DNA of 64,000 bases. Origin: a virus. Every line of letters begins with the position of its first letter. Within the stretch, counting starts at the first letter, position 1. A program made the translations under genes and the position numbers. The stretch is from UHGV virus genome UHGV-0332176; one strand, given 5' to 3'. Shown in pieces: positions 1 to 55,449 of the stretch. Below the pieces are notes generated by a model that had not been told where the DNA came from, searched no databases, and saw nothing but the letters and a program-made list of their open reading frames with translations.

Positions 1-623
1 AATTCAAATTTATTTTCTTTATCATAAAAATCATTATTATTAAAATCCTCAATGGATAAAATTGAATTTTCTAAAAATTGTTTATCATCATCATTATGAT
101 TATATTTAGAATGATACATTAATGGTGTACCTGTTAAAGTTATTTTTTTTAAATATTCAGAATTTAAATCAATTGTACGAAATTGTTTATTTAATTCTGT
201 TTGCTTTGTAGGATTAATTTCTCCACCATATTTTTTAAAAGCATCAGCAAATGTTATGGGTTTTTCTTTCTTTTTAATTTTTTTTAAAATTTTTTTTGTA
301 AAATCTTTAACTTTTGAAAAGAAAATATCTAATTTTTTATTATTTTTTGAAATTTTATTAATTGGATTTTTAAAATTAGAATTTTGATAATATTTTTCTA
401 ACGCATCCATAACATCATTATTAATATAATTTGTTATAATATCATTTGAAATACCTGAATTTACAATTTGTTCATATTCTATATTCTCTTTAATAGACTG
501 CGGTGATACTCCTGAATTATATAAAATTTTTGCAATAAGTTGAAGAAATTCATTTTTATATTTCTTCCATATTTTATCATCATTTTTATACATATTTTTA
601 TATACTTTAAATAAACTAAACAT
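1..623 (-). CDS. Hypothetical protein, partial (C-terminal part runs off the window start)
   Basis: ATG at 623-621 preceded by strong RBS (minus strand ...TTAAGGAGAGATAAAAAATG); long open frame to position 1; no complete ORF listed here on either strand. Confidence 0.5.
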   Translation of the reverse strand, partial: MFSLFKVYKNMYKNDDKIWKKYKNEFLQLIAKILYNSGVSPQSIKENIEYEQIVNSGISNDIITNYINNDVMDALEKYYQNSNFKNPINKISKNNKKLDIFFSKVKDFTKKILKKIKKKEKPITFADAFKKYGGEINPTKQTELNKQFRTIDLNSEYLKKITLTGTPLMYHSKYNHNDDDKQFLENSILSIEDFNNNDFYDKENKFE

Positions 624-813
624 TTTTTATCTCTCCTTAAAAAGTTAATAAGCAAAGTTAAACTTTTTACTCGTAAAAGTTAAATTTTAAATCTAACTTT
701 GCTCAATTAGTTTATTTAGTATAATAAATAGGAAAAAATTAATCAAAATAAAAAATAGTATTTTTTACTTCTATTTTTGCAAGTATATTGGGGAAATTAA
801 ATCAAAGATAAAA

Positions 814-900
814 TGGTGGGCATACCGAGAGTCGAACTCGGATGAGGATACCCCCGACAGATTTTAAGTCTGTTGCGTCTACCAATTCCGCCATACGCCC
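814..900 (-). tRNA. tRNA-Leu (anticodon TAA), type II with long variable arm, CCA encoded
   Basis: Reverse complement folds as a cloverleaf: acceptor GGGCGTA..., D-arm with GG, anticodon stem-loop ACAGA-CTTAAAA-TCTGT (anticodon UAA), long variable arm CGGGGGTATCCTCATCCG, T-arm GAGTTCGACTCTC, 3' ...CCCACCA. Confidence 0.8.
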
Positions 901-910
901 TTAATAATTT

Positions 911-918
911 TATTTATA
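911..918 (-). promoter_or_regulatory. T4-late-type promoter core TATAAATA (minus strand), 10 nt upstream of tRNA-Leu 5' end
   Basis: Plus-strand tatttata = minus TATAAATA, followed by AAAATTATTAA. The same extended motif (TTAATAATTTTATTTAT) precedes the second tRNA cluster at 3532-3549. Confidence 0.45.
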
Positions 919-1138
919 TTATATTTAAATATTATTATCAATATATTATAAATCACTTCTGCTCTGCAAAAACATTTTTGCTTGTATATTTAAATTATCA
1001 TCCTTATTTAACTGCTACCTCAATTAACGGACATATTATTTGCAAGAGTAATTAATCCTTGGAAAATAAATGGTAGCTTTATTTCTGTAACTAATTACTG
1101 TGATTACCTCTACGTTCATATATATAACATTATATTTT

Positions 1139-1669
1139 TTAATTGTCAATACTTTTTTTATTATTTTTTTTACTTACTAATTTATTTAAAAATTTCATTA
1201 ATTGTTGTTTATCACAATCCATTAAATCGTTAAAATTTTTATAACTCATATGATTAAGTAAATCGTGATAACATCCTTCACAAACCTCTATTCCAAATAA
1301 ATCAAATAAAGGTTCATCATCTTCATTCGGACATAAAAAACATCTTCCTTTTTTATTTAAATTATCTTTTTCATAAACAGTCTTTGTAAATAAATTTAAA
1401 AATTTATTAAACATTGATTTTTTCTCCTCTTTTACTTGATTCCATTCTTGAATATTACGATTATAATATTCAGTATCTGATTTATTTAATTGATTTGTAT
1501 ATATTTTAAAATTACAATCATTACAAATAGTATATGTATAAGCTAATGCTTTTTCAGGTTGCTGATAACATAAAGCTACAATTAAATCAATACCTGACCC
1601 AAAACCTAAATTTGTTGACCCACATTTAGGACAAGGTTTATATGGATAGATGTTACTATAATTATTCAT
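1139..1669 (-). CDS. Zinc-ribbon protein with four CxxC pairs; hypothetical
   Basis: 176 aa; CPKCG...CNDC...CFLCP...CEGC. Minus-strand TATAAT and GGAG RBS upstream of ATG at 1669. Confidence 0.6.
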   Translation of the reverse strand: MNNYSNIYPYKPCPKCGSTNLGFGSGIDLIVALCYQQPEKALAYTYTICNDCNFKIYTNQLNKSDTEYYNRNIQEWNQVKEEKKSMFNKFLNLFTKTVYEKDNLNKKGRCFLCPNEDDEPLFDLFGIEVCEGCYHDLLNHMSYKNFNDLMDCDKQQLMKFLNKLVSKKNNKKSIDN

Positions 1670-1713
1670 TAAAAATCTCCATAAATTATATATGGAGATT
1701 ACACTATATTTAA

Positions 1714-2550
1714 TTATTTGTCAACAATTTTTTCTTCCGTTTTTTTATTCCATAAACCTTTTGCTTTTCTTTCTGCAAACGTTTCTTTAACAAAATGTTT
1801 AGAAATTTCATTTTCATAAATTTCTTTTTCTTGTTCATAATTATTAATTCTTTCATTTGCCATATCAATATATTCTTGTGAATTATCAATACCAATATAA
1901 TTATGATTAAGAAATTTACAAGCTATCGCTGTTGTTCCTGAACCTATATATGGGTCAATAATTAATTTATTTGTTTCATTATCCAGTATAGAATATATGC
2001 ATCTTAATGGAATTTGTAATGGAAAAGGTGCAGGATGATTTGACTTTTTTTCTGGTGATATTTCCCATACTGATGTTAGTAATGAATGTTTTGATTTCAT
2101 TTCTGAACCAATTAAATTATTATTAATTGGTTTATATAGCCAATAAATTCGTTCTTCTATTTGCCAAAATCTATAACCTCTAATATTAGATGCTATTTTT
2201 CTATTCCAAATAATTTCTTGTCGTATTGTCCAATCAGTTTTTCTTAACCAATCCATTGGATGAATCATATACCCTTTATCCCATCTTAATTTATGATTAT
2301 AAAAAAATGAACCGCCAGGTTTTATTATTCTATATAATTCATTTAATACTTTAATTTGTAATTCTTGATAATTATTTTCAGGCATTGAATCATTATAAGA
2401 ATTGTATTGAACATCTTTAACTAACCAACCTTTATTTTTTTTCCCAAACTTATTATAAGGCGGAGAAGTTATACCCATATCTACACTATTAGAATCAAAT
2501 TGTTTTAATGTTTCTAATGTATCACCAAAATATATTTTATTTACATTCAC
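1714..2550 (-). CDS. DNA amino-methyltransferase, beta-class (motif IV SPPY before motif I DPYIGSGTT); likely N4-cytosine (or N6-adenine) MTase
   Basis: DMGITSPPYNK near N-terminus and FxGSGTT AdoMet motif near C-terminus; the order IV->I marks the beta class; SPPY is typical of N4C enzymes. Confidence 0.85.
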   Translation of the reverse strand: MNVNKIYFGDTLETLKQFDSNSVDMGITSPPYNKFGKKNKGWLVKDVQYNSYNDSMPENNYQELQIKVLNELYRIIKPGGSFFYNHKLRWDKGYMIHPMDWLRKTDWTIRQEIIWNRKIASNIRGYRFWQIEERIYWLYKPINNNLIGSEMKSKHSLLTSVWEISPEKKSNHPAPFPLQIPLRCIYSILDNETNKLIIDPYIGSGTTAIACKFLNHNYIGIDNSQEYIDMANERINNYEQEKEIYENEISKHFVKETFAERKAKGLWNKKTEEKIVDK

Positions 2551-3172
2551 TTAAAAGCCTTTCATATAAATCTTTAACAATATAAGATTTATAATATTCT
2601 AATTTAGTTTTTGATGCAATATAAATTAATTCTGCATCATCAATATAAGATTTATAATTAAATTGTAAACTTCGTAAATAATGATTTGGCTTTCTTGGTA
2701 AATGTGAATCACCAAAATAATTATATAACTTATTATAAAAATGTGTTTTTAATTTTGGAGAATCATACTTTATTTTAAAAATATAAATTAATTTTCCATC
2801 TATAAAACCACCTATTAATAATGTTGGATTTTCTTTTAAATGCTTATGGTATCTATCCCAAGTATAATCACTATAAGAACCAGACCCATTTAATTTTTCA
2901 GGTTTTTGCTTGGAAGTATCACAATTACTTAATTTAACTTCACAAAATCCTTCTTCATTTTGTCCATCATATCCTAATTTAGATAATAATGGTTGATAAT
3001 TACATTCATATAAAATAGTTCTTTCACGAGCAGTAGATGAATTTTTATCATTAATAAATTGCTTTATTAATTGTATAATAATTTCTTTATTATTTTCTTT
3101 ATTTAATGTTTGATTAAATTCTTGAATTTTATCAGTTGAATAAAAATATATTAATTTATCTATGATATTCAT
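2537..3172 (-). CDS. Hypothetical protein co-oriented with and overlapping the MTase start by 14 nt; candidate cognate restriction endonuclease (alternatively a small KxNG nucleotidyltransferase)
   Basis: 211 aa. Possible PD-(D/E)xK-like YDGQNEEGFCEVK segment and a KLNG motif. Operon-like overlap with the MTase. No recognisable family. Confidence 0.35.
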   Translation of the reverse strand: MNIIDKLIYFYSTDKIQEFNQTLNKENNKEIIIQLIKQFINDKNSSTARERTILYECNYQPLLSKLGYDGQNEEGFCEVKLSNCDTSKQKPEKLNGSGSYSDYTWDRYHKHLKENPTLLIGGFIDGKLIYIFKIKYDSPKLKTHFYNKLYNYFGDSHLPRKPNHYLRSLQFNYKSYIDDAELIYIASKTKLEYYKSYIVKDLYERLLSECK

Positions 3173-3202
3173 TTAATATCAATAACTCCCACATAAAAAT
3201 TT

Positions 3203-3289
3203 TGGAAGTCTGGACGAGATTCGAACTCGCATCATCTTTTCAGATATACGGTTTTGCAGACCGCTGTATAGCCATTCTACCACCAGACT
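3203..3289 (-). tRNA. tRNA with anticodon GCA (Cys) and U73 discriminator but type-II architecture (17-nt variable arm), CCA encoded
   Basis: RC: AGTCTGG/CCAGACT acceptor, GG in D-loop, anticodon stem-loop GCGGT-CTGCAAA-ACCGT, variable arm ATATCTGAAAAGATGAT, T-arm GCGAG-TTCGAAT-CTCGT, then U-CCA. Confidence 0.6.
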
Positions 3290-3296
3290 TATAAAA

Positions 3297-3371
3297 TGGT
3301 ACGGTAAGTGAGAATCGAACTCACATATTCAGCTTGGAAGGCTGACGTAATAGCCATTATACCATTACCGC
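3297..3371 (-). tRNA. tRNA-Gly (anticodon TCC)
   Basis: RC: GCGGTAA...TTACCGT acceptor (G1-U72 wobble), anticodon stem-loop TCAGC-CTTCCAA-GCTGA, T-arm GTGAG-TTCGATT-CTCAC, ACCA end. Confidence 0.75.
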
Positions 3372-3376
3372 ATTAA

Positions 3377-3451
3377 TGGAGCGACTTGCGAGAATCGAAC
3401 TCACATCTAAACCTTGGCAAGGTCTTGTATTAACCATTATACGAAAGTCGC
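3377..3451 (-). tRNA. tRNA-Gly (anticodon GCC)
   Basis: RC: perfect acceptor GCGACTT/AAGTCGC, D-stem GTAT/ATAC, anticodon stem-loop AGACC-TTGCCAA-GGTTT, T-loop TTCGATT, U73-CCA. Confidence 0.75.
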
Positions 3452-3457
3452 AAATAT

Positions 3458-3531
3458 TGGCAGGAGCATAGGGATTTGAACCCCAACAGACAGTTTTGGA
3501 GACTGTAATGCTACCGTTACATCATACTCCT
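3458..3531 (-). tRNA. tRNA-Trp (anticodon CCA)
   Basis: RC: AGGAGTA/TGCTCCT acceptor, U8, D-stem ATGT/GCAT, anticodon stem-loop ACAGT-CTCCAAA-ACTGT, T-loop TTCAAAT, G73-CCA. Confidence 0.75.
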
Positions 3532-3541
3532 TTAATAATTT

Positions 3542-3549
3542 TATTTATT
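3542..3549 (-). promoter_or_regulatory. Late-type promoter core AATAAATA (minus strand), 10 nt upstream of the tRNA-Trp 5' end; same spacing and flanks as the tRNA-Leu promoter
   Basis: Plus tatttatt; conserved 20-nt context tttaataattttatttat shared with 901-918. Confidence 0.4.
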
Positions 3550-3561
3550 ATAATAATATTT

Positions 3562-4098
3562 TTATTTAATAATATCAATATATTTTTTATTAATTTCTTT
3601 AACAAGCCAAACGTTATTATCAGAAATATAAAATTCAATACCATCAGCTAACATTTGTTTAGCATCAATAGATAAAATAATTGTTTTACCTTTTCTTCTA
3701 TCACCAACTTTTTTAGCTGTTTCAATATCATTTGATAAATGAACATATTGCCTTTTCATAGGTAATAATCCTTTTTTCATAATTGAAGGAATATTACTTT
3801 CTTGTGTTCCGTGATATAAAATAATTGGTGGGATAGATTTCTTAAAATGTATATCTACATCTTTTGTTGTATGTCCTTGATTAGCTCTAATTTTTGTACC
3901 ATCTTCTGATATAGAAAATCGTTTCTTATCATTTGTATCAACAATTTCTTTAATTATATCATAAGATAATTTCATTTCAGAATTATCAATAATATATTGT
4001 ATATCTCCCCATCCTTCTTTATCTAATTTCAATTTAATAATTTCTGGTTTATGGCGTAGAATATAACTCAAATACTTACTAATTTCTATATTATTCAT
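3562..4098 (-). CDS. kptA: RNA 2'-phosphotransferase Tpt1/KptA
   Basis: Near-colinear match to E. coli KptA: SKYLSYILRHKPE, DKKRFS, IRANQGHTT, LYHGT, YVHLS, TAKKVG.RR.G, NNVWL. Confidence 0.9.
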   Translation of the reverse strand: MNNIEISKYLSYILRHKPEIIKLKLDKEGWGDIQYIIDNSEMKLSYDIIKEIVDTNDKKRFSISEDGTKIRANQGHTTKDVDIHFKKSIPPIILYHGTQESNIPSIMKKGLLPMKRQYVHLSNDIETAKKVGDRRKGKTIILSIDAKQMLADGIEFYISDNNVWLVKEINKKYIDIIK

Positions 4099-4114
4099 AA
4101 TATATACCTATAAA

Positions 4115-4155
4115 AAAAATAATGAGTGATTCCTAAATAGTTAGGATTAAATCTG
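4115..4155. terminator. Compound stem-loop between convergent/tandem minus-strand genes
   Basis: tgagtga...tcactca outer stem with inner tcctaa/ttagga stem. Confidence 0.3.
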
Positions 4156-4174
4156 TCACTCACAGATTATAATA

Positions 4175-4414
4175 TTATTTTACACCAACAACTTCACGAT
4201 AATCTACAATGTCAGCGTCTTTAACATTTGGTACTTCATTATCTGTATAAATAGTTGCTTCTAGTAATGGACCAAAATTATTAGTATGAGCATTATAATA
4301 TGCAGAATATGCAATACCTTTTTTCTTCAATACAAGCATTGTTTTAGGACGTGTCCAATCAGCATTGCTTTTACCAATTTCACTCAATAATTTTTCTTTT
4401 ACTTCTTCAGTCAT
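4175..4414 (-). CDS. Hypothetical protein (79 aa)
   Basis: Intact ORF in tight minus-strand gene array. Confidence 0.55.
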   Translation of the reverse strand: MTEEVKEKLLSEIGKSNADWTRPKTMLVLKKKGIAYSAYYNAHTNNFGPLLEATIYTDNEVPNVKDADIVDYREVVGVK

Positions 4415-4426
4415 TTTATTCCTCTC

Positions 4427-4666
4427 TTATTTTGATATTTTAATATTTTCTTTTAAAAAACCTGTTACAAATCCTAAAAATGCTCCCACTTGAAACATAG
4501 TAACATTTGTAATACCTAATTGGGCTAAAATTCCAAGAATTGTATCTTCAAATGCAAGTCCAACAATCCAACCTGCAACTCCACCAAAAAATGTTGAAGC
4601 AATACAAGAAACTACAATTAGTATTGGAGTTAAAATAGCAAATAAAACAATCATCATTTTATTCAT
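4427..4666 (-). CDS. Small membrane protein (2 predicted TM helices)
   Basis: Hydrophobic 79-aa ORF; 4-nt overlap with upstream gene. Confidence 0.55.
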   Translation of the reverse strand: MNKMMIVLFAILTPILIVVSCIASTFFGGVAGWIVGLAFEDTILGILAQLGITNVTMFQVGAFLGFVTGFLKENIKISK

Positions 4667-5145
4667 TTTCTTTTAACCTTTTCTGTTACGACAAATGAAG
4701 TTGCTGTTTCAGTAATAACTTCATCTGTTTCCTGAACAATAAATCCTTTAAATTTAATATTATAAATGGTTTCATTTTTTTTAAATAGTTTTCCTTTTTT
4801 AGTTTCCTTAACTATAGAAGCTACTTCATCTTTATATTTGTAGTTTTCAATTATGTCAAGCATTTTTTTAAGTTTTGGATTTGAATTTAATTCAGTTTCA
4901 TCAATTTTAATTTCAACTACATTTTCAAGAATAGAACGAGCAAAATAATAACCATTAATTATTTCACATTTTTTTCCTTTAAAATAAAAGATAGGTGATT
5001 CATTATCTGTTGGAATATGAACAATATCTGCTTTATAAACTTCATATCTCCACCCAATTTTAGAATAAAATTTGTGAATATTTTCATTCCAAATCACTTC
5101 ATATGAAGGAGTTTTTGCTTCACAATCTTTAATTATCCAAACCAT
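4663..5145 (-). CDS. Hypothetical protein (160 aa)
   Basis: Intact ORF, operon-like spacing. Confidence 0.6.
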   Translation of the reverse strand: MVWIIKDCEAKTPSYEVIWNENIHKFYSKIGWRYEVYKADIVHIPTDNESPIFYFKGKKCEIINGYYFARSILENVVEIKIDETELNSNPKLKKMLDIIENYKYKDEVASIVKETKKGKLFKKNETIYNIKFKGFIVQETDEVITETATSFVVTEKVKRK

Positions 5146-5148
5146 TAA

Positions 5149-5442
5149 TTATTCTCCCAAATCATTGAAAGTTAATACACGATTAATATATCTTTCTAAT
5201 GGAACATATGAACCATCTTTCATTTGAATTAAACATTCAGAAAAAATTGGACGTTTTGTATTTTTTTCATATGTGTAACCAGTATAAGCACAAGATACTT
5301 TATCAACCATAAAATTTCCAAAACCAACAAGGCAAAGTAATGCAAGAACAGCAATTACACTAATTTTAAAATCACGTTTAGTAAATATGTCATCATCTTC
5401 CCAATCTTCTTCAATTTTTTTTCTCAAAAACCAATCAAACAT
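5149..5442 (-). CDS. Hypothetical membrane-anchored protein (97 aa)
   Basis: One central TM segment (ISVIAVLALLCLVGFGNF). Confidence 0.55.
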   Translation of the reverse strand: MFDWFLRKKIEEDWEDDDIFTKRDFKISVIAVLALLCLVGFGNFMVDKVSCAYTGYTYEKNTKRPIFSECLIQMKDGSYVPLERYINRVLTFNDLGE

Positions 5443-5830
5443 TTTCTTTACCTTTCTTTTTCAAAGTTGCACATTTCATAAATTCTTCATAAGTTGAATT
5501 CAATTTACCATTATAAAATTTTCGTGCCACATAATCAGATGTAAATGGTGATTTAAAAATACTTTTAAATACATCTTTAATCTGATTCAATGTTTCAGGA
5601 AAACCTACCATTATAACAGATGGAATAAACATCAAAGTCACCCATAATAGTAATAATGGTGTATACCAATGCTCAATTTCTAAATGTTCATCTTTTACAT
5701 AATAACGGTATTTTATCATACCATATCTAAATTTCCTTAAAGGAAATAATTTTTTATGGTCTTTCATTGATAAAGAATATTCATCATATCCTTTTTCTAA
5801 TAACGGAATATACTTATATTCTTTACCCAT
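5435..5830 (-). CDS. Hypothetical membrane protein (131 aa)
   Basis: TM segment WYTPLLLLWVTLMFIPSVIMVGF; 8-nt overlap with the next gene. Confidence 0.55.
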   Translation of the reverse strand: MGKEYKYIPLLEKGYDEYSLSMKDHKKLFPLRKFRYGMIKYRYYVKDEHLEIEHWYTPLLLLWVTLMFIPSVIMVGFPETLNQIKDVFKSIFKSPFTSDYVARKFYNGKLNSTYEEFMKCATLKKKGKENV

Positions 5831-5832
5831 TT

Positions 5833-6063
5833 TTAATTTCCTTCTTTTTTGTCAAGTGTAAAATATCTCTTTAAATCAAATCCTTTTAGAGATGGCATAT
5901 AATAACCATCTTTACCAGTATTTTTTACTCGGTATGTATTACCAGAAACGTCTTGCATCCATATACTTTTTTCAGTTACTTTAGTGACTGTTCTGGTGCT
6001 TATTACTCTATCAGACCAATCGTGATGACTTGAAAATGTATCTCCAACTTTAACTTCAACCAT
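5833..6063 (-). CDS. Hypothetical protein (76 aa)
   Basis: Intact ORF. Confidence 0.5.
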   Translation of the reverse strand: MVEVKVGDTFSSHHDWSDRVISTRTVTKVTEKSIWMQDVSGNTYRVKNTGKDGYYMPSLKGFDLKRYFTLDKKEGN

Positions 6064-6147
6064 TTTAATTTCCTTTCATTAAAAATATCATCATTTGATA
6101 TTGGTACTATAACATACAAAAATAACTTGTCAAGAACTTTTTTTAAT

Positions 6148-6681
6148 TTATTTTATATTTAATTTTTCTTTTATTTCTTCCCACGACCAAGGTTCATAAT
6201 TATGTGTATCAACCCCAATATCCATACAATTGATATTTTGATGTGGCATTAATTTCGTAAAATCAGCTAAATTAAATTTTCCGTGAGTATGACCATACAA
6301 ATGAATTGACCCGTGCCAAGCACAATCCCATTCTGCTATTGGATAATGAGATAATATAATTCTATTGTCATCAATAATAATTCGTTTATATGGAACAATT
6401 TCTGCCCATACATTTGATAATTGATGTGGTATAAGTTTATCGTGATTACCAATTATTAAATATTTAATACCATTCATTTTAGAAAATGTTTGTTGGATTT
6501 TATCAGAATTCCAACCCCAACAAACGTCTCCTAAAACATATATAATATCATTTACACCAACTTTTTTATTCCAACGCTTAATAATTTCTTCATTCATTTG
6601 CTGAACAGATGCAAATGGTCTATTTGAATGTCGTATACTATTTGTATGGTCTAAATGTAAATCACTTGTAAAAAATATCAT
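6148..6681 (-). CDS. Calcineurin-like metallophosphoesterase (binuclear-metal phosphatase); candidate RNA end-healing phosphatase
   Basis: Motifs SDLHLDH, GDVCWGW, GNHD, GHTHG. Start chosen at MIFFTSDLH (ATG 6681), giving a TAAAATG stop/start junction with the upstream gene; the ORF-track start at 6744 would overlap that gene by 62 nt. Confidence 0.8.
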   Translation of the reverse strand: MIFFTSDLHLDHTNSIRHSNRPFASVQQMNEEIIKRWNKKVGVNDIIYVLGDVCWGWNSDKIQQTFSKMNGIKYLIIGNHDKLIPHQLSNVWAEIVPYKRIIIDDNRIILSHYPIAEWDCAWHGSIHLYGHTHGKFNLADFTKLMPHQNINCMDIGVDTHNYEPWSWEEIKEKLNIK

Positions 6682-6682
6682 T

Positions 6683-7492
6683 TTATTCATCACCATACAT
6701 AATTGGTTCAGCATCATAAAAATAAGTTTCAACCTTATTTTCAACTTTTTTCATAATTGGTAATTGTAATTCTTGAACTTCACTACGCATTACCATATTA
6801 TTTTCAGGTCTTTTATCAGTAGGTATTTTAGATAATGTTTCTTCATCAAGAACTTTCATTACATTAACTCTTTTGAAATAAGACCCTCTTTTAAGAAATG
6901 GTTTAATATCATTAAAATTAATACCTTTTTCTTGAAATAGCATTTCATTCATTTCTGCTGTTGATTTACCTTGTAATTCTTTATGACTAAAATTTGCTTG
7001 TGCAACCATACTAACAGCATTTCGTGCAGCATCATTTTCTCGCCATACAAAAGCATTAGCTAATTCTATCATATTTGGTAATTGAAAGACACGACAATCA
7101 AAATTTGGTTTAAGATTTTCAACTTTTTCTTTTAATTTCGGATATTTCATACAATTTAAAACAAAAGATACAGTTGCCATTGATGCAAGAACAGATGTTA
7201 ATTTAAATAATCTTCCATCAAACGGTGCTTTACTCATATCTTCCCAAGCTAATGAAATTTCATCTGACTGAACATATCCAAGTTTTGCATTTGTCTGTTT
7301 TACTAAATCTTGACAAACCTCTCTCATAACTGCAACAAATTCCATATCAAATGGTTTATCTAATCCACGACAAAAAGTATGAAAAGCACGACCATCTAAT
7401 CTAACATATACAGGTAATCTTGGCATTAACATTGTTGATGTTGTTAATGCTTCATAAGTTTTCATACGGTCTCCCAAATTATCATTTATCAT
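6683..7492 (-). CDS. Thg1-like protein (tRNA-His guanylyltransferase family, 3'-5' nucleotidyltransferase)
   Basis: PVYVRLDGRAFHTF (Thg1 RxDGRxFHxF motif), VQSDEISLAW (GQSDEYSF), RLFKLTSVLASMATVSFV. Start placed at internal ATG 7492 (RBS AAGGA); 7465 (RBS GGGAGA) is also possible. The 7594 start in the ORF track would overlap the upstream gene by 100 nt. Confidence 0.8.
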   Translation of the reverse strand: MINDNLGDRMKTYEALTTSTMLMPRLPVYVRLDGRAFHTFCRGLDKPFDMEFVAVMREVCQDLVKQTNAKLGYVQSDEISLAWEDMSKAPFDGRLFKLTSVLASMATVSFVLNCMKYPKLKEKVENLKPNFDCRVFQLPNMIELANAFVWRENDAARNAVSMVAQANFSHKELQGKSTAEMNEMLFQEKGINFNDIKPFLKRGSYFKRVNVMKVLDEETLSKIPTDKRPENNMVMRSEVQELQLPIMKKVENKVETYFYDAEPIMYGDE

Positions 7493-7493
7493 T

Positions 7494-7844
7494 TTAATAT
7501 CCTTTAAATTTACTACAAAAACAAATCCGTTTTTTTCTTCTTTTTTCTCTTTTAAACATTGCAAAATCAATTCTTTTACAAATTGTATTTTCAAATATGT
7601 AATTTTCTAATTCAGTTAAAAAACTGTTATATAAATCATAATTCCAAATTTTACCTTTATATGGTTTTATCATATTTTTAATATGTGCCATTTGTTCTAC
7701 AGAAAAGTAATTTAGTCTAATATATAAACAAGTATTTTTCCATATTCTTAAAGATAAACAAGGTATATTATATGGAAACATTGTATTTGTTAATTTATTA
7801 ATATACCTATCACAAACAAAATTAACTTTTTTCTTATTTCTCAA
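7494..7844 (-). CDS. Hypothetical protein
   Basis: ORF immediately upstream of the Thg1-like gene; several possible internal starts. Confidence 0.4.
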   Translation of the reverse strand: MRNKKKVNFVCDRYINKLTNTMFPYNIPCLSLRIWKNTCLYIRLNYFSVEQMAHIKNMIKPYKGKIWNYDLYNSFLTELENYIFENTICKRIDFAMFKREKRRKKRICFCSKFKGY

Positions 7845-7853
7845 TTAAACTTC

Positions 7854-8012
7854 TCCGTTTATTTCTTTACATTCATATAATTTTAAAGTTAATTCTTTGT
7901 TTTCAAACATTTTCTTTGCTGTTTGAAATTCCTCTACTGAATCACAAGATAAAACTTCAGTATTTATATTACCAACATCATCTCTCATAATCATTTCAAT
8001 AACATATTTCAT
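7854..8012 (-). CDS. Small hypothetical protein (52 aa; MKYVIEMIMRDD...), not in the ORF track (<60 aa)
   Basis: Strong RBS GGAGGAGA; ATG overlaps the stop of the upstream gene (TGATG coupling). Confidence 0.45.
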
Positions 8013-8239
8013 CAGTTTATCTCCTCTCTAAGAGTTTTATTATATTTTGAAGCATTTTTTAAAACTTTATTAAATGTTTCAACTTCAACTTCACCTGTTT
8101 CAGGATTTAAATATTCCGAATAAGTTAAATCACATTTATCGTGATAACTTACATCAAGAATTAAAAGTTGTTTTTTTCCTTCTGTTATTAAACCACTTTC
8201 ACCAGCAGAAACACTATCAATTTTTATAAAGTATCTCAT
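8012..8239 (-). CDS. Hypothetical protein (75 aa)
   Basis: Intact ORF, translationally coupled to the downstream small gene. Confidence 0.5.
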   Translation of the reverse strand: MRYFIKIDSVSAGESGLITEGKKQLLILDVSYHDKCDLTYSEYLNPETGEVEVETFNKVLKNASKYNKTLREEIN

Positions 8240-8248
8240 AAAAACTCC

Positions 8249-8536
8249 TTAATTTGTTTTATAACGACAAGAACCAACTTCATAACCTTTTTCTTTTAAA
8301 AGATTATTAAAATTCCATTGATTTGTACCACCAGTATAATCTTTACGATGTTCAGCAGTCCGATACATAATAAACATTGAATGATTTAATGGACAACTTC
8401 TAACATCAGCAGTAGAAATATAATACAATTGTCCATTCCAATTAAAAAAACCAGAACAATAGTAATAATTGGCGTGCAATTCAATATCTGTTCCACCAAG
8501 AATCTCAATTGCTTTTTTTAAAGATACTTTTTTCAT
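8249..8536 (-). CDS. Hypothetical protein (95 aa)
   Basis: Intact ORF preceded by a sigma70-like promoter. Confidence 0.55.
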   Translation of the reverse strand: MKKVSLKKAIEILGGTDIELHANYYYCSGFFNWNGQLYYISTADVRSCPLNHSMFIMYRTAEHRKDYTGGTNQWNFNNLLKEKGYEVGSCRYKTN

Positions 8537-8572
8537 TGTTATAATCTTTCATTATTTGTTATTGATAAAGTT

Positions 8573-8600
8573 AATATAACATAGAAGAATTATTTGTCAA
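8573..8600 (-). promoter_or_regulatory. Sigma70-like promoter TTGACA-N16-TATATT (minus strand)
   Basis: Plus-strand tgtcaa at 8595-8600 and aatata at 8573-8578; one of many recurrent ATTTGTCAA (minus-strand TTGACAAAT) sites. Confidence 0.45.
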
Positions 8601-8612
8601 TAGAAAAAAATA

Positions 8613-8643
8613 AAAAATCCAAGAATTTTTCTTGGATTTTTAT
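8613..8643. terminator. Rho-independent terminator hairpin (aaaaatccaagaa/ttcttggattttt)
   Basis: Perfect inverted repeat flanked by A/T runs, downstream of the 8660..8959 gene. Confidence 0.6.
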
Positions 8644-8659
8644 AAAATATATTAATTTT

Positions 8660-8959
8660 TTATTTTGTTGGCTTAACTTTTGCATATGAAATAATTCTAA
8701 ATGGATTTTTAAGATACCAATCACGATTAAATTTATGTTTAATAGCGTGATAAAATTTTCCTTTTGATGGTGATTTAATCCATTCAAGATAATCGTGTCT
8801 TGTTAAACCTCTAACGATATATGTTTTTGGATTTTTTTTAACTTTGAAGGTAATTATTTCTTCACCAGGAAAATAACGATTTCTACGTCCATAATAAGAT
8901 ACATCTTGTAACCAAGATGAATTAACTAATTTTTCTTGTAATAATGTACTTATTTTCAT
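8660..8959 (-). CDS. Hypothetical basic protein (99 aa) immediately downstream of the tail fibre gene
   Basis: Intact ORF starting 13 nt after the tail fibre stop. Confidence 0.55.
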   Translation of the reverse strand: MKISTLLQEKLVNSSWLQDVSYYGRRNRYFPGEEIITFKVKKNPKTYIVRGLTRHDYLEWIKSPSKGKFYHAIKHKFNRDWYLKNPFRIISYAKVKPTK

Positions 8960-8971
8960 AAAAATCCTTAA

Positions 8972-11900
8972 TTATTCAATAATAATATTATTTTTTCCAC
9001 GTAAATAATCAATAGTTATCAAAATTGTTCCTGCTGTTGAAACTTGAATAACAGGTAAAGAACCTGCGTCATTTCCAACAGGAATAAATTTTGTAATTAA
9101 CTGCATATTTTCATCTAACAATTCCAAATATAATGTATAATCTGAAAAATTATATTCTAATGTATAATCAGAATCATCATCAATAATTTCAAAAGTTGTT
9201 GGGTCAACTTTCTGTAAATCTCTTTCAAAATTAAATACATATTCAAAACCTGTTTCAGGAATTACCATCCAATATGAAGGATTAAATAATTCGTGAGCAT
9301 CATTTGAAGTATGTGCTTGTTTACATTGATAATATCTATCTTGATAAGCAACTTTATCATCAACTTGATATTGAGTTGCTGTTACCCAATTTTGATAATA
9401 ACTTGAATTAATATCACGTTTAGTAACGTCTAATATATTTCTATTAAATAATAGGCGAGCTGAATCTTCATTATTACTTGCTACAATAGAAATATATTTA
9501 ATATCTTTTAAATCAACCGTTAAACCAGTATCTGAATCTTTACCTTGTTTATAAACATCTTCCCACATAGAAATTTTACCAGTACGTCCTGCATCTTCAT
9601 CAAATGATGTTGATGAAGTATGTGCTTGACTACACATATAATAATATGTTGATGTTACTCCATCATATTCTTCATCGTGTTTTATAATATCACCAACTGC
9701 ATAATATAAATTTGGTTCCCAAGTTAAAGTATTTTCATTAATTTTATTAACTATTGAATAAAATGGTCGTCTAATATTAAATGATAATTGTTTTAAATTT
9801 ACGAAATCTCCATAAATTCCTTTATCAAAAAAGATAATAGGGATTCTTGTTTTCATAATTGTTTGAATAGCTTGATAATCAATACCAACACGATTTTCTG
9901 TTGATGCTAATTTATTAACATATTCAACGTTTGGAATAGCATCATTATCTGAAGCAATTCTTTCGGCATATGATAAATTAGTGTGTGTAGAATCATCAAT
10001 AACTAAATAATTATCACGAGTTGTTTGAAATGTGATTTTTTGACCACTTTCATAGCTACGAATAACATTACCATTTAAGTCCAGAGCTTTATTTAATAAA
10101 ACAGATGGAGTATAATAATTTACTAATTGCCAATATTCAGCATTATTTGTGGTAATATCAGTTGATGAAGTGTGTTCTTTTAAACAAATATAAATATTAT
10201 AACCAATTTCAAAAGGTATTTGAACATAATCATTAACATTATATGTTACACCAACTTCCCAAGTTGAATAAGATGCATTATTTCCACCAAGTTCTAAATG
10301 TCCATAAAAACCAGAACCTAATTCAACATCTCCTGTTAAATTTGTACCACTTATTGTAACTTTATTATTATTAGAAGCATCTCCTTGTTCAATTGTAATA
10401 CCATTAGTTAATGGACGAACAACTTCTTTTCCATCAATAATTTCAGTATTATATAATCCTTTAACTAAATCATCCCCATTTGGAGTAGCTAAATAATCTA
10501 AAAATACCCATTTTGGTTGATAAAAATCAAATTGATAGATTCTTTTGGAACTCATTTCAGGGTCTAATGTGTCAATATTATTTAATGTTGAATTATTTGT
10601 AAAACGAGTAGCAATTGTATTACTTTCTGTAACGTTTTTATCAAATAAAGAATTAATAAATGTTAAATATTCAGTTCTTTCGCTTAAAGTAATAATAGAT
10701 TTTCCTAATGAACAATTACTAAATCTATTTCCAATAAATGAACCATTTGAAGTTTTATTATTTTCATTATAAGAAGTTATATTAATTGCTTGATTTGTAA
10801 TATCTTTAAATAAGCAATTATTAAATAAAAACCAACTTAAATTATTTGAAATATTTACACCATTTCTAGCATTTTCAAAAATGCAATTAAAGAAATGTAC
10901 ATAAGAAGAATCTTGTAAACCTTGTGATTTAAAAATATTAACTAATGTTGAACCATTACCATTTTGTATATCAGAATAACCAATGAATTTAACATTTCTA
11001 AACCAAACATCATATGTTGAACCTAACAATAAAACAGTTTCTAATGTACTTTCAGACACATCAAAAGTCATATCTTCAACAATAATATTGTGTGCAATTT
11101 CTCCATTAACACCATATTTGTTTGTTGATGATAAATCACTTAAAACATAATTACTATCTAATGTTGTTAATAAAACATTCAAACCATTTTCATAACTATT
11201 TGTTTTAATAATAGTTCTATCAATTCCTTCACCTTTTAAATGAATACCAGTTGGTAATGCTAATGGTTTAGAATTAATAATATATTCACCAGCAGGAACT
11301 AACATTGTTTTGAAGCAATCAGGTTTATTATCTGCACAATAAACAGTTAATATAGCATTATAAAAAGCATCTGAATCATCAGTTGTTCCATCGCCCAATA
11401 CACCAAAATTTTTAACTGAACAATAATCATCTAAAACTTCTTGAATTGTTCTATCAGAAGGTGGTGTAGCATTTTCTGTATAACTTGGTTCAGTTGTAAT
11501 ACCAATAATATCAAGAATTCCACCTTGTTCTTGACCTTCACCATTTTCTAAAACAAGTGTTTCTCCATTGCTAATAATTTGAATTTTTCCACCTTCAACA
11601 ACTTGTGCTTTAACACCTAAATTTAAAGAATTTATTTTATCACAAAATCCTTGAGCATCTGTTTCTTTATCAAATGTAATTGTTTGACCATTTATAACAA
11701 TTGTTGTTCCAGCTGGAATAGATGGATACAATTTGGAACCTGTTACAATTATAGGTAATTTACTACCATTACCATTTGAATAAACATATTTAATCATATC
11801 CAAATTATCACTAAATTCAGTTAAAACCTGAATATTACCATATGGAAATGTATTAGATTGAATTCTTTCTTTTAATTTTGGATTATTTGGATTACCAATA

Positions 11901-41429: not shown

Positions 41430-41460
41430 AAAAGGTCAGGCATTGCCTGACCTTTTAAAA
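41430..41460. terminator. Bidirectional terminator (aaaaggtcaggc-attg-cctgacctttt)
   Basis: Between convergent genes. Confidence 0.7.
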
Positions 41461-55423: not shown

Positions 55424-55449
55424 AAAAAAGGAGTTTAAACTCCTTTTTT
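55424..55449. terminator. Terminator palindrome aaaaaaggagttt/aaactcctttttt downstream of the giant ORF
   Basis: Perfect 13-bp palindrome. Confidence 0.65.

What the first reader, a model, noticed from the sequence alone, without database searches (positions are those of the whole stretch)
814..7492. Phage-borne tRNA processing/repair island: five tRNAs + Tpt1 + metallophosphoesterase + Thg1-like polymerase
Within ~6.7 kb on one strand lie two tRNA clusters (Leu-TAA; Cys-like-GCA, Gly-TCC, Gly-GCC, Trp-CCA). Next come an RNA 2'-phosphotransferase (Tpt1/KptA), a calcineurin-type metallophosphoesterase and a Thg1-like 3'-5' nucleotidyltransferase. Small membrane ORFs are interspersed. Thg1-like proteins rebuild damaged tRNA 5' ends. 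Calcineurin-type phosphoesterases act as the 2',3'-cyclic-phosphate/3'-phosphate healing module in Pnkp-type RNA repair enzymes. Tpt1 removes the junction 2'-phosphate left by Trl1-type ligation. Together with the tRNA genes this looks like a coherent counter-defence module against host tRNA-targeting nucleases (PrrC/RloC-like anticodon nucleases or tRNA-cleaving toxins/defence systems). It differs from the T4 Pnk/Rnl1 solution. No ligase or kinase is visible in the window, so the pathway is either incomplete here or uses a non-canonical sealing step.
Basis: partly seen in the sequence, partly recalled or inferred. Interest (0 to 1): 0.85.

Follow-up and report, generated by a model that had tools for sequence, protein, structure and literature searches.

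The report
Phage tRNA genes plus RNA-end repair enzymes
A large gut phage carries five tRNA genes beside three enzymes that can rebuild or clean damaged RNA ends, a gene set already described for giant phages as a likely answer to bacterial defences that cut tRNA, so this is a good but unsurprising example.

Summary
On the minus strand of window 814-7492 lie five tRNA genes, an RNA 2'-phosphotransferase (Tpt1/KptA, catalytic Arg-His-Arg-Arg present), a metallophosphoesterase (MPE, all five metal-binding motifs present) and a bacterial-type Thg1-like 3'-5' polymerase (TLP, catalytic carboxylates present).

The window is part of a ~286-kb, 25% GC, T4-like jumbo myovirus from human gut metagenomes.

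- Thg1-MPE and Tpt1-MPE adjacency recur more often than expected in unrelated viral and genomic contigs (p about 0.003-0.007).
- One unrelated phage contig (L102) has Macro-Tpt1-Thg1-MPE in a row.
- Tpt1 abuts tRNA arrays in several phages.
- Related gut phages keep the same locus with varying Thg1/Tpt1/TROVE content.

Points against the reading:
- The window's MPE is not the Pnkp/lambda-phosphatase type; it belongs to an uncharacterised COG4186/aq_1665-like family found in 1,522 phage records.
- No ligase, polynucleotide kinase or 2H enzyme is in the window or the ~8-10 kb read past its left edge in relatives.
- The Tpt1-Thg1 link alone is only suggestive statistically.
- Substrates and a counter-defence role are inferred.

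The concept (jumbo-phage tRNAs, KptA, Thg1 and calcineurin-like phosphatases as RNA repair against host RNases) is already published. Verdict: new member of a known kind, moderate interest.

The parts
6683..7492 (-). Thg1-like protein (TLP), 269 aa; template-dependent 3'-5' nucleotidyltransferase of the bacterial type
   Evidence: PF04446 at 4e-31 plus PF14413; phrog_4717 at 3e-81. Best PDB match is the B. thuringiensis TLP 4KGK at 5e-41, against 4e-18 for eukaryotic Thg1. D33 (RLDG) and D77-E78 (SDE) are present, and there is no HINNLYN motif. 93-96% identical in L006/L007.
6148..6681 (-). Metallophosphoesterase, 177 aa, COG4186/aq_1665-like (phrog_547). The start codon lies 1 nt after the Thg1 stop; an alternative upstream ATG at 6717 is used by one gene caller.
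   Evidence: phrog_547 at 4.5e-44; PDB 1XM7 at 2e-11 only. Motifs DLHLDH(7), GD(51), GNHD(78), SHYP(111), GHTH(130). 348 stand-alone homologues with no domain fusions. Found in 1,522 phage records.
3562..4098 (-). Tpt1/KptA NAD+-dependent RNA 2'-phosphotransferase, 178 aa; its stop lies 30 nt before tRNA-Trp
   Evidence: PF01885 at 3e-50; NF002014 at 227 bits against a cut-off of 239. Best PDB match is Runella Tpt1 7KW8 at 5.5e-48. R15, H16, R60 and R116 align with the essential R16, H17, R64 and R119.
3458..3531 (-). tRNA-Trp (CCA)
   Evidence: ARAGORN; Rfam 56.6 bits
3377..3451 (-). tRNA-Gly (GCC)
   Evidence: ARAGORN; Rfam 61.6 bits
3297..3371 (-). tRNA-Gly (TCC)
   Evidence: ARAGORN; Rfam 67.9 bits
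3203..3289 (-). tRNA-Cys (GCA), 87 nt, with U73 and an unusual 17-nt stem-loop variable arm
   Evidence: ARAGORN; Rfam 53.8 bits; manual reading. The arm is kept by compensatory changes in L133.
814..900 (-). tRNA-Leu (TAA); duplicated in relatives L006/L007
   Evidence: ARAGORN; Rfam 58 bits
4175..6063 (-). Six tightly packed small ORFs of unknown function: orf76 5833-6063, orf131 5435-5830, orf97 5149-5442, orf160 4663-5145, TM79 4427-4666 and orf79a 4175-4414. Three have membrane segments. Whether they belong to the repair function is unknown.
   Evidence: No Pfam hits; PHROG families of unknown function only. orf160 has only close homologues. 40-82% identical in L006/L007. TM segments and gaps of 12 nt or less.
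1714..3172 (-). Two overlapping genes between tRNA-Cys and the zinc-finger ORF: a 211-aa ORF (phrog_3210) and an N4/N6 DNA methyltransferase. Probably not part of the RNA function. Present in L126, absent at this position in L006/L007.
   Evidence: PF01555 at 4e-33; phrog_3210; presence and absence in relatives
1139..1669 (-). 176-aa Cys-rich (zinc-finger) ORF between the two tRNA clusters; function unknown
   Evidence: Only a weak Lar-family hit, 18 bits against a cut-off of 39.6. C-terminal half 70% identical in L006/L007.

Best explanation
This is the local version of a modular accessory locus for tRNA supply and RNA-end repair, found in a clade of human-gut jumbo myoviruses.

Proposed working (inferred):
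- The phage brings its own copies of a few tRNAs (Trp, Gly x2, Cys, Leu-UAA).
- It also brings three enzymes that restore damaged tRNA ends. The bacterial-type Thg1-like polymerase refills missing 5' nucleotides of the acceptor stem, using the 3' strand as template.
- The adjacent metallophosphoesterase prepares ends. It either removes 2',3'-cyclic or 3'-phosphates, or trims the 5' end to a 5'-phosphate that the polymerase can activate.
- Tpt1 uses NAD+ to remove a 2'-phosphate, either one left when a cyclic phosphate is opened or one at a ligation junction.
- Any kinase or sealing step would have to come from genes elsewhere in the ~286-kb genome or from the host (for example RtcB), or would not be needed if the damage is at tRNA termini.
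- The likely selective pressure is host tRNA-cleaving defence or toxin RNases.

Shown: gene identities, intact catalytic residues, tight packing, and recurrent gene linkages in other phages.
Inferred: the substrates, the order of steps and the counter-defence role.
For: Identities and active sites. The closest characterised relative of the polymerase, BtTLP, prefers repair of 5'-truncated tRNAs of any identity (PMC3061083).

Packing: Thg1 and the MPE are 1 nt apart, and Tpt1 ends 30 nt before the tRNA array.

Locus conservation: the order is identical in L126-L128 and conserved with indels in L006/L007. In more distant relatives (MPE 64-79% identical) the locus reads Thg1...MPE (L131), TROVE...Thg1...MPE (L132), TROVE...MPE...Tpt1-tRNA-Trp (L133) and TROVE...MPE (L129/L130). 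The same Trp/Gly/Cys/Leu tRNA set follows it.

Independent lineages: L102 has a NADAR-tRNA_bind fusion, Macro, Tpt1, Thg1 and a lambda-phosphatase-like MPE in a row. L045 has Thg1 with an MBL-fold hydrolase 1.6 kb from Tpt1. L051 has Tpt1 next to a P-loop kinase fused to a Pnkp-type phosphatase (4J6O, 4e-22).

Enrichment:
- MPE within 1.5 kb of Thg1: 5 in 71 kb against 3 in 378 kb, p=0.0037 (0.003-0.007 after collapsing lineages).
- All 4 MPEs in the 25 Tpt1 lineages lie just downstream of Tpt1, p=0.004.
- Metallophos is the commonest immediate neighbour of 79 TLP genes in GTDB genomes (5 of 148 ORFs), followed by RNA_ligase 3, AAA_33 2 and RtcB 1.
- Thg1 neighbours in 22 viral lineages: RNA_ligase 4, CCA-enzyme head domain 3, Metallophos 3, RlaP 2, HD 2.
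- tRNA arrays lie within 6 kb of Tpt1 in 5 of 25 lineages and abut it in three.

The window's MPE family lies near an Rnl1-type RNA ligase, an HD hydrolase and NAD-salvage genes in phage PaP1.

Published comparative genomics reaches the same functional reading.
Against: - There are no experimental data for any of these proteins.
- No ligase, Pnk-type kinase, 2H, Macro or CCA-adding enzyme is in the 64-kb window or in the ~8-10 kb read past its left edge in relatives. The only kinase there is a dNMP kinase.
- The window's MPE family is uncharacterised, occurs in 1,522 phage records mostly without Thg1 or Tpt1, and shows no sequence match to Pnkp or lambda phosphatase.
- Six ORFan genes separate the MPE from Tpt1.
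- Homing endonucleases split Thg1 from the MPE, and Tpt1 from the tRNAs, in L006/L007 without apparent harm.
- Tpt1 was absent from all 33 distant viral Thg1 loci and from 78 of 79 genomic ones, so the Tpt1-Thg1 link is weak on my numbers (p 0.02-0.12).
- Tpt1's other recurrent neighbours are NAD+/ADP-ribose enzymes rather than RNA enzymes.
- Runella Tpt1, the closest solved relative, cannot remove terminal 2'/3'-phosphates (PMC6573784).
- Promoter-like sites occur at chance frequency, and the hairpin before Tpt1 is not significant, so co-expression is unproven.
Confidence: 0.55

Rival explanations
1. Coincidental neighbours in a plastic accessory region. On this reading the genes act independently. 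The tRNAs boost translation of an AT-rich genome. Tpt1 acts in NAD+/ADP-ribose metabolism or as an ADP-ribosyltransferase that caps 5'-phosphate ends of nucleic acids. The MPE is a generic nucleotide or DNA phosphoesterase. The Thg1-like enzyme matures tRNA-His.
For: - TTA makes up 80% of Leu codons and is the 6th commonest codon. GGT and GGA make up 59% and 33% of Gly codons, matching the Leu-UAA, Gly-GCC and Gly-UCC tRNAs.
- The region is plastic: a Mtase cassette is present or absent, and homing endonucleases are inserted in relatives.
- ORFan genes are interspersed.
- The MPE family is in 1,522 phage records.
- Tpt1 neighbourhoods in three cultured phages are uninformative.
- In IMG/VR, Tpt1 neighbourhoods are rich in NADAR, NUDIX, SLOG, nicotinamidase and NAPRTase.
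- Bacterial Tpt1 ADP-ribosylates 5'-phosphorylated RNA in vitro (PMC8120803).
Against: - Thg1-MPE and Tpt1-MPE adjacency is enriched, with at least three non-orthologous MPE subfamilies.
- The contiguous trio recurs in unrelated L102.
- Tpt1 abuts tRNA arrays repeatedly.
- Cys and Trp codons are rare (0.9% and 1.2%), so demand does not explain those tRNAs.
- No tRNA-His is in the window.
- BtTLP-type enzymes prefer repair over G-1 addition.
Confidence: 0.25
2. A maturation system rather than a repair system. The Thg1-like polymerase, with the MPE as a trimming enzyme, edits or completes the 5' ends of the phage's own tightly packed tRNA transcripts. This would be analogous to mitochondrial tRNA 5'-editing by TLPs. 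Tpt1 would process a 2'-phosphate arising during that maturation.
For: - The four clustered tRNAs are separated by only 5-8 nt and carry encoded CCA, so precursor processing must be precise.
- The tRNA set travels with the locus across the clade.
- TLPs carry out templated 5'-end completion.
Against: - All five acceptor stems are fully paired at positions 1-7 as encoded, with only G-U wobbles (manual reading). There is therefore no encoded 5' mismatch that would need editing.
- Thg1-bearing phage loci often lack nearby tRNAs: about half of 35 loci have none within 10 kb.
- Thg1 neighbours are RNA ligases, RlaP and RtcB, which are typical of repair.
Confidence: 0.1

Closest known systems
RNA-repair and tRNA gene complements of jumbo phages (Iyer, Anantharaman, Krishnan, Burroughs, Aravind 2021, PMC7824862; Iyer et al. 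2022, PMC9503650)
   Same: The host type of element is the same: a jumbo tailed phage. The components are the same: phage tRNAs, KptA/Tpt1, Thg1 and calcineurin-like phosphatase, with TROVE in relatives. The proposed purpose is the same: repair of tRNA cut by host endoRNases.
   Different: Those surveys describe KptA and Thg1 as sporadic and mostly alongside RNA ligases, Pnk-HAD, 2H and Macro. Here the three enzymes sit together beside the tRNA array, with no ligase, kinase, 2H or Macro in 64 kb. The phosphatase belongs to the uncharacterised COG4186/aq_1665-like MPE family.
Phage T4 PseT (Pnk) + Rnl1 repair of PrrC-cleaved tRNA-Lys
   Same: A phage-encoded answer to tRNA damage, carried by a T4-like myovirus that also encodes tRNAs.
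   Different: T4 uses a 5'-kinase/3'-phosphatase of the HAD type and an ATP-dependent ligase. None of these was detected here. T4 has no Tpt1 or Thg1-like enzyme (own knowledge).
Bacterial Pnkp-Hen1 RNA repair system (PMC3675462)
   Same: It uses a binuclear metallophosphoesterase to remove 2',3'-cyclic phosphate from RNA ends. A Pnkp-type kinase-phosphatase sits next to Tpt1 in viral contig L051.
   Different: The window's MPE shows no sequence match to the Pnkp phosphatase 4J6O or to lambda phosphatase at E<=1. It lacks the GDxHG motif. It is a 177-aa stand-alone protein without kinase or ligase modules and with no Hen1 partner.
Bacterial Thg1-like operons with Pnk-type kinase, Macro and RNA ligase (Anantharaman, Iyer, Aravind 2010, PMC2904730), and KptA-Thg1 operons (PMC8120803)
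   Same: The same bacterial-type TLP. An association of TLP with KptA and Macro is also seen here in the window lineage and in L102.
   Different: The persistent partner reported there is a polynucleotide kinase, and none is present here. In my samples the most frequent immediate partner was a metallophosphoesterase, which that paper does not mention.
Fungal/plant tRNA splicing: Trl1 ligase + Tpt1
   Same: Tpt1 with the same catalytic tetrad. Runella Tpt1, 166 bits to the window protein, complements yeast tpt1-delta.
   Different: No Trl1-type ligase with cyclic phosphodiesterase and kinase domains was detected, and there are no intron-containing tRNAs. The source of any 2'-phosphate substrate is therefore unknown.

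Membership tests
Tpt1/KptA RNA 2'-phosphotransferase (PF01885) | Full-length profile match above the curated threshold | tested here: met
   171 bits against a cut-off of 26, covering residues 3-167 on profile positions 3-176 of 177. The NCBIfam equivalog NF002014 scores 227 bits, just under its strict cut-off of 239.
Tpt1/KptA RNA 2'-phosphotransferase (PF01885) | Essential Arg-His-Arg-Arg active-site residues (Runella R16, H17, R64, R119) | tested here: met
   R15, H16, R60 and R116 align with them. They are invariant in the five-sequence phage alignment. Essentiality is documented in PMC6097658.
Tpt1/KptA RNA 2'-phosphotransferase (PF01885) | NAD+-dependent removal of an RNA 2'-phosphate | not testable with these tools
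   Needs an enzyme assay.
Thg1 superfamily, bacterial/archaeal TLP branch | Thg1 catalytic domain plus C-terminal domain above thresholds | tested here: met
   PF04446 at 108 bits against 29.2; PF14413 at 31 bits against 26.3.
Thg1 superfamily, bacterial/archaeal TLP branch | Palm-domain metal-binding carboxylates (the Asp of RxDG and the Asp-Glu of SDE) | tested here: met
   D33, D77 and E78 are present and aligned to BtTLP, Candida and human Thg1. They are invariant in the eight-sequence alignment.
Thg1 superfamily, bacterial/archaeal TLP branch | TLP type rather than eukaryotic tRNA-His-specific Thg1: closer to BtTLP and lacking the HINNLYN motif | tested here: met
   BtTLP 4KGK scores 5e-41 against 4e-18 for Candida Thg1. 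The window has WRENDAARN where human Thg1 has DCHINNLYN. The significance of that motif is from my own knowledge.
Thg1 superfamily, bacterial/archaeal TLP branch | Templated 3'-5' nucleotide addition to 5'-truncated tRNA | not testable with these tools
   Needs an enzyme assay. It has been shown for BtTLP (PMC3061083).
Calcineurin-like metallophosphoesterase superfamily | Pfam match above the gathering threshold | tested here: not met
   Only Metallophos_2 at 17 bits against 27, and no PF00149 hit. Many homologues do carry PF00149 or PF12850.
Calcineurin-like metallophosphoesterase superfamily | Five conserved metal/phosphate-binding motifs: DxH, GD, GNH[DE], H, GHxH | tested here: met
   DLHLDH at 7, GD at 51, GNHD at 78, SHYP at 111 and GHTH at 130. 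phrog_547 scores 4.5e-44 and 1XM7 scores 2e-11.
Pnkp / lambda-phosphatase-type RNA 2',3'-phosphatase module | Sequence relationship to the Pnkp phosphatase (4J6O) or lambda phosphatase (1G5B), with the GDxHG and GDxxDRG motifs | tested here: not met
   No PDB match other than 1XM7 at E<=1. The motif is DLHLDH, not GDxHG. By contrast the L051 MPE matches 4J6O at 4e-22 and the L102 MPE matches 1G5B at 5e-8.
Healing-and-sealing RNA repair pathway (T4 Pnk/Rnl1, Pnkp/Hen1, RtcA/RtcB) | An RNA ligase (Rnl1/Rnl2/Rnl-type or RtcB) encoded with the healing enzymes | tested here: not met
   None was found in window ORFs of 90 aa or more by Pfam or PHROGs. None was found in L042 or L126 beyond the left edge. 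The remaining ~220 kb of the genome could not be read.
Healing-and-sealing RNA repair pathway (T4 Pnk/Rnl1, Pnkp/Hen1, RtcA/RtcB) | A polynucleotide 5'-kinase | tested here: not met
   The only Walker-A match at 1-9000 lies inside Tpt1. The P-loop protein beyond the left edge is a dNMP kinase, PF21448.
Phage tRNA genes as counter-defence (nuclease-resistant or replacement tRNAs) | Phage tRNAs differ from the host's at the nuclease recognition site, or replace a depleted host tRNA | not testable with these tools
   The host is unknown. The concept is established for T5-like and other phages (PMC10264068, PMC11555353).

The most novel reading that the evidence does not exclude
The Tpt1-TLP-MPE trio may be a self-sufficient, ligase-independent system that repairs both ends of the tRNA acceptor stem.

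On this reading the metallophosphoesterase trims or cleans ends. The Thg1-like polymerase refills the 5' strand. Tpt1 uses NAD+ to clear a 2'- or 3'-phosphate from the 3' end, so that the host CCA-adding enzyme can finish the repair.

It would counter defences that attack tRNA termini rather than anticodon loops. Examples are HEPN nucleases cutting at A|CCA as reported for LbaCas13a, acceptor-stem toxins, or 3'-end pyrophosphorylating toxins.

The recurrent TLP-MPE gene pair, which I did not find described in the searchable literature, would be its core.
Probability: 0.15. Interest if true: 0.7.

Novelty: new member of a known kind. Interest (0 to 1): 0.4.

Why it matters
The physiological roles of bacterial and phage Tpt1/KptA and of Thg1-like polymerases are still open questions: the enzymes are well studied in vitro but have no known natural substrates in bacteria.

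A phage clade that keeps these genes next to its tRNA array, and swaps Thg1, Tpt1 and TROVE in and out around a constant phosphoesterase, offers natural variants for testing what damage they repair.

The recurrent Thg1-like/metallophosphoesterase pairing is a concrete, cheap biochemical lead: does the phosphoesterase make the 5'-phosphate or clean 3' end that the polymerase or CCA enzyme needs?

If the ligase-free reading were right, it would add a new type of phage counter-defence aimed at tRNA termini.

As it stands the locus fits an already published picture. It comes from an uncultured phage with an unknown host, which limits immediate impact.

Tried and rejected
1. Megablast of window 1-12000 against GenBank phages found no match. 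The capsid is only 53% identical to Rak2/121Q/GAP32-type jumbo phages.

2. Synteny with GAP32 and CBB: only Thg1 and a weak downstream methyltransferase match. The 168-aa gene overlapping Thg1 there is not an MPE homologue.

3. Tpt1 neighbourhoods in three cultured phages (fHe-Yen9-02, phiCD211, FBKp24) contain only hypothetical proteins and were uninformative.

4. A hairpin plus T-run between orf79a and Tpt1 looked like a terminator, but its z-score is -1.1. It is not claimed.

5. Sigma-70-like promoter sites occur at chance frequency, 117 against 120.7 expected. Two 11/12 sites in the intergenic gaps (8600->8573 and 6133->6106) are noted only as possibilities.

6. orf160 was tested as a possible hidden Macro, 2H or kinase. 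It has only close homologues and no Pfam or PHROG family. Regex scans for Walker-A, 2H and ligase KxDG motifs in the island found nothing independent.

7. The P-loop protein beyond the left edge was considered as a polynucleotide kinase. It is a dNMP kinase.

8. The tRNA-Cys copies in L006/L007 are identical, so they give no covariation. Covariation came only from L133.

9. Burroughs & Aravind 2016 (RNA repair systems) could not be read because it is not held.

10. Searching the whole ~286-kb genome for a ligase was not possible, because tools return at most 10 kb around a match.

11. Structure prediction and fold search of the MPE were considered and skipped. Any MPE fold would match the whole superfamily and would not settle the substrate.

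Full report
**What is in the sequence**

ARAGORN and Rfam agree on five tRNA genes, all on the minus strand:
- Leu-TAA, 814-900
- Cys-GCA, 3203-3289
- Gly-TCC, 3297-3371
- Gly-GCC, 3377-3451
- Trp-CCA, 3458-3531

All five encode their CCA ends, and the four clustered genes are only 5-8 nt apart. On the same strand lie three enzymes.
- **Tpt1/KptA (3562-4098):** PF01885 at 3e-50.
- **Metallophosphoesterase (6148-6681):** Pfam is below its cut-off, but phrog_547 scores 4.5e-44, PDB 1XM7 scores 2e-11, and all five MPE motifs are present.
- **Thg1-like protein (6683-7492):** PF04446 at 4e-31 plus PF14413.

Six small ORFs, three with membrane segments, lie between the phosphoesterase and Tpt1. A 211-aa ORF with an N4/N6 DNA methyltransferase, and a zinc-finger ORF, lie between the two tRNA clusters. 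Island G+C (0.263) matches the window (0.255), so nothing suggests a recent foreign insertion.

**Context**

The window is 25% G+C. It encodes a T4-type capsid, portal, prohead protease and baseplate protein, a GroEL, a DnaB helicase and a 2453-aa ORF. Its capsid is 53% identical to those of Rak2/121Q/GAP32-type jumbo myoviruses, and no close relative is in GenBank phages.

Near-identical islands occur on a 286,172-bp NCBI metagenome contig and two Logan assemblies. Related ones occur on IMG/VR contigs of 287 and 206 kb. One also occurs on a 283.5-kb contig filed as an 'uncultured bacterium' bin in GTDB. The element is an uncultured jumbo phage. The human-gut origin is my inference from the sample and assembly accessions, not something a tool reported.

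**Family membership**

- **Tpt1.** The window protein aligns end to end with Runella Tpt1 (5.5e-48). It keeps R15, H16, R60 and R116 at the positions of the four residues shown to be essential.
- **Polymerase.** It is of the bacterial Thg1-like (TLP) type. B. thuringiensis TLP scores 5e-41 against 4e-18 for eukaryotic Thg1. The palm carboxylates D33, D77 and E78 are present, and the eukaryotic HINNLYN segment is absent. BtTLP prefers to rebuild 5'-truncated tRNAs of any identity (PMC3061083).
- **Phosphoesterase.** It belongs to a family of stand-alone ~175-190-aa proteins (COG4186/MJ1445/aq_1665-like) without informative fusions, present in 1,522 phage records. It has no detectable sequence relationship to the Pnkp phosphatase (4J6O; PMC3675462) or to lambda phosphatase.

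**Is there a ligase or kinase?**

None was found among window ORFs of 90 aa or more by Pfam or PHROGs, and no motif scan of the island found one. Past the window's left edge the two sets of relatives differ.
- **L042 (the IMG/VR relatives):** a PD-(D/E)XK endonuclease, a helicase-Eco57I-type methylase, a dNMP kinase, a second metallophosphoesterase and a DNA methylase.
- **L126/L127 (nearly identical to the window):** the dNMP kinase and the second metallophosphoesterase.

The other ~220 kb of the genome could not be read with these tools.

**Is the clustering meaningful?**

Each gene is individually known in phages: Thg1 in 164 records, Tpt1 in 98. The first tests looked negative. GAP32 and CBB share only Thg1 and a downstream methyltransferase. 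Tpt1 neighbourhoods in three cultured phages are uninformative. None of 33 more distant viral Thg1 loci had Tpt1 within 10 kb.

Broader sampling changed the picture.

1. Around Thg1 in 22 non-redundant viral lineages, the most recurrent Pfam families are RNA_ligase (4), the CCA-enzyme head domain (3), Metallophos (3), RlaP (2) and HD (2).

2. MPE genes are about nine times denser within 1.5 kb of Thg1 than elsewhere in the same loci: 5 in 71 kb against 3 in 378 kb. The binomial p is 0.0037, or 0.003-0.007 after collapsing related lineages. At least three MPE subfamilies are involved.

3. Of 25 non-redundant viral Tpt1 lineages, four have an MPE, each 0.5-1.3 kb downstream of Tpt1 (p=0.004). 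One of these (L051) is a P-loop kinase fused to a Pnkp-type phosphatase.

4. Two of those 25 lineages also have Thg1 within a few kb. L102 reads NADAR-tRNA_bind fusion ... Macro - Tpt1 - Thg1 - lambda-phosphatase-like MPE, with Thg1 abutting the MPE as in the window. L045 has Thg1 followed by an MBL-fold hydrolase, 1.6 kb from Tpt1.

5. Five of the 25 lineages have tRNA arrays within 6 kb of Tpt1, and three abut it.

6. In GTDB genomes, the single most frequent immediate neighbour of 79 TLP genes is again Metallophos (5 of 148 ORFs). RNA_ligase (3), AAA_33 kinase (2) and RtcB (1) follow. Two gut Clostridia contigs pair Thg1 with the window's own MPE subfamily.

7. In related gut phages (MPE 64-79% identical) the same locus holds Thg1+MPE, TROVE+Thg1+MPE, TROVE+MPE or TROVE+MPE+Tpt1. 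The same small tRNA set follows it.

The Tpt1-Thg1 link taken alone is only suggestive on my numbers (p 0.02-0.12), although it has been noted for bacterial operons (PMC8120803).

**Anatomy within the window**

Genes from 8536 down to 3562 fall into three blocks, with internal gaps of 12 nt or less:
- [orf95 ... orf116 - Thg1 - MPE]
- [orf76 ... orf79a]
- [Tpt1 - 30 nt - tRNAs]

The blocks are separated by gaps of 84 and 76 nt. Promoter-like sites are no more frequent than chance, and the hairpin before Tpt1 is not significant, so transcription units remain unknown. In L006/L007 a NUMOD3 homing endonuclease separates Thg1 from the MPE, and a PD-(D/E)XK gene separates Tpt1 from tRNA-Trp. Strict translational coupling is therefore not required.

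**Most likely function**

This is a modular accessory locus for tRNA supply and RNA-end repair.
- The TLP refills 5'-truncated acceptor stems. This is inferred from BtTLP.
- The adjacent phosphoesterase prepares ends. It either removes 2',3'-cyclic or 3'-phosphates or trims to a 5'-phosphate. This is inferred from superfamily chemistry and the recurrent pairing.
- Tpt1 removes a 2'-phosphate with NAD+. This is inferred from the intact active site.
- Kinase and ligase steps, if needed, must be supplied from elsewhere.

The likely pressure is host tRNA-targeting nucleases. That role is well documented for phage tRNAs and T4 repair enzymes (PMC10264068, PMC11555353) and is proposed for exactly these gene families in jumbo phages. 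I give this 0.55.

The main rival, independent functions in a plastic region, gets 0.25. It is supported by codon usage (TTA is 80% of Leu codons; GGT and GGA dominate Gly), the ORFan genes, the indels, and the NAD+/ADP-ribose company that Tpt1 usually keeps. A tRNA-maturation role for the TLP gets 0.1. The encoded acceptor stems are fully paired, which argues against 5' editing.

**Comparison with the known, and novelty**

The framework is published:
- Thg1 with Pnk-type kinase, Macro and RNA ligase in bacteria, and RNA-repair roles in large DNA viruses (PMC2904730).
- KptA, Thg1, calcineurin-like phosphatases, TROVE and tRNAs in jumbo phages as counter-measures to host RNases (PMC7824862, PMC9503650).

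No experimental study of a phage TLP or Tpt1 as counter-defence turned up. This locus is therefore a new member of a known kind.

Two modest points may be new. One is the recurrent TLP-metallophosphoesterase gene pair. The other is the mix-and-match locus of this gut phage clade. I did not find either described in the searchable library, but one key review could not be read.

**The most novel reading not excluded**

The trio could form a ligase-independent system that repairs tRNA termini, for example after A|CCA cleavage of the kind reported for LbaCas13a. Against it, Runella Tpt1, the closest solved relative, cannot remove terminal phosphates, whereas the Clostridium and Aeropyrum enzymes can. 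I put this reading at 0.15.

**Scores**

Interest is 0.4. The finding is correct and coherent and offers testable leads on two enzymes of unknown bacterial function. It would not surprise a specialist, and it comes from an uncultured phage with an unknown host.

Noticed in passing
window 3203-3289 (-); L133 6054-6143; L131 9954-10041: tRNA-Cys(GCA, U73) carries a 17-nt stem-loop variable arm, like a class II tRNA, which is unusual for Cys. The arm is kept by compensatory base changes in the more divergent relative L133 (90 nt). A relative (L131) has a similar insertion in tRNA-Trp (88 nt). Other phage tRNA-Cys genes seen here are a normal 74-76 nt. The meaning is unknown; mischarging by SerRS, or evasion or decoy of a tRNA-targeting nuclease, are conceivable.
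   Followed up: partly
L129-L133 (relatives found through the phosphoesterase): TROVE/Ro60-like proteins (~435 aa) occupy the same locus as Thg1/Tpt1 in related gut phages, once split by an HNH gene. Rfam's gathering-threshold scan found only tRNAs there, and no Y RNA partner.
   Followed up: partly
window 1714-3172 (-): A 211-aa ORF (phrog_3210, unknown function) overlaps an N4/N6 DNA methyltransferase by 14 nt. The pair is present in the window and L126 but absent at this position in L006/L007, so it behaves as an insertion/deletion cassette between tRNA-Cys and the zinc-finger ORF.
   Followed up: partly
L042 6191-7439 and 10650-11090 (= L006/L007): In the 75-95% identical relatives, a NUMOD3-type homing endonuclease (293 aa, plus a 97-aa ORF) sits between Thg1 and the phosphoesterase. 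A PD-(D/E)XK endonuclease sits between Tpt1 and tRNA-Trp. The locus is a hotspot for mobile endonuclease genes.
   Followed up: partly
L134 (CASEYV010000001.1, 283,511 bp): A GTDB species-representative 'uncultured bacterium' bin contains a 283.5-kb contig whose Thg1 is 90% identical to the window's. It is almost certainly a phage genome mis-binned as a bacterium.
   Followed up: no
window 12119-12715 (-) and 18170-19807 (-): The phage encodes a complete LuxR/GerE-type response regulator (receiver plus HTH domains) and a GroEL-type chaperonin (PF00118, 1.8e-70).
   Followed up: no
window 31350-33839 (+) and 33849-36377 (+): Two adjacent large ORFs of 829 and 842 aa. The second has a weak match to the ADP-ribosyltransferase domain of polyvalent proteins (PF18760, 26 bits against a cut-off of 31) and to PHROG families of unknown function. 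They may be injected or virion proteins.
   Followed up: no
window 55448-62809 (-): A 2453-aa ORF next to the baseplate and tail genes. It was not analysed.
   Followed up: no
L102 3580-4380; L051 7511-8884: Two notable architectures lie next to phage Tpt1 genes elsewhere. One is a NADAR domain fused to a tRNA-binding domain (PF01588). The other is a 458-aa P-loop kinase fused to a Pnkp-type 2',3'-phosphatase without the ligase module.
   Followed up: partly
window 41455-42027 (-): An HNH endonuclease gene (phrog_16726, 1.5e-37) is inserted beside the AAA ATPase and major capsid genes. It is another sign of mobile endonucleases in this genome.
   Followed up: no
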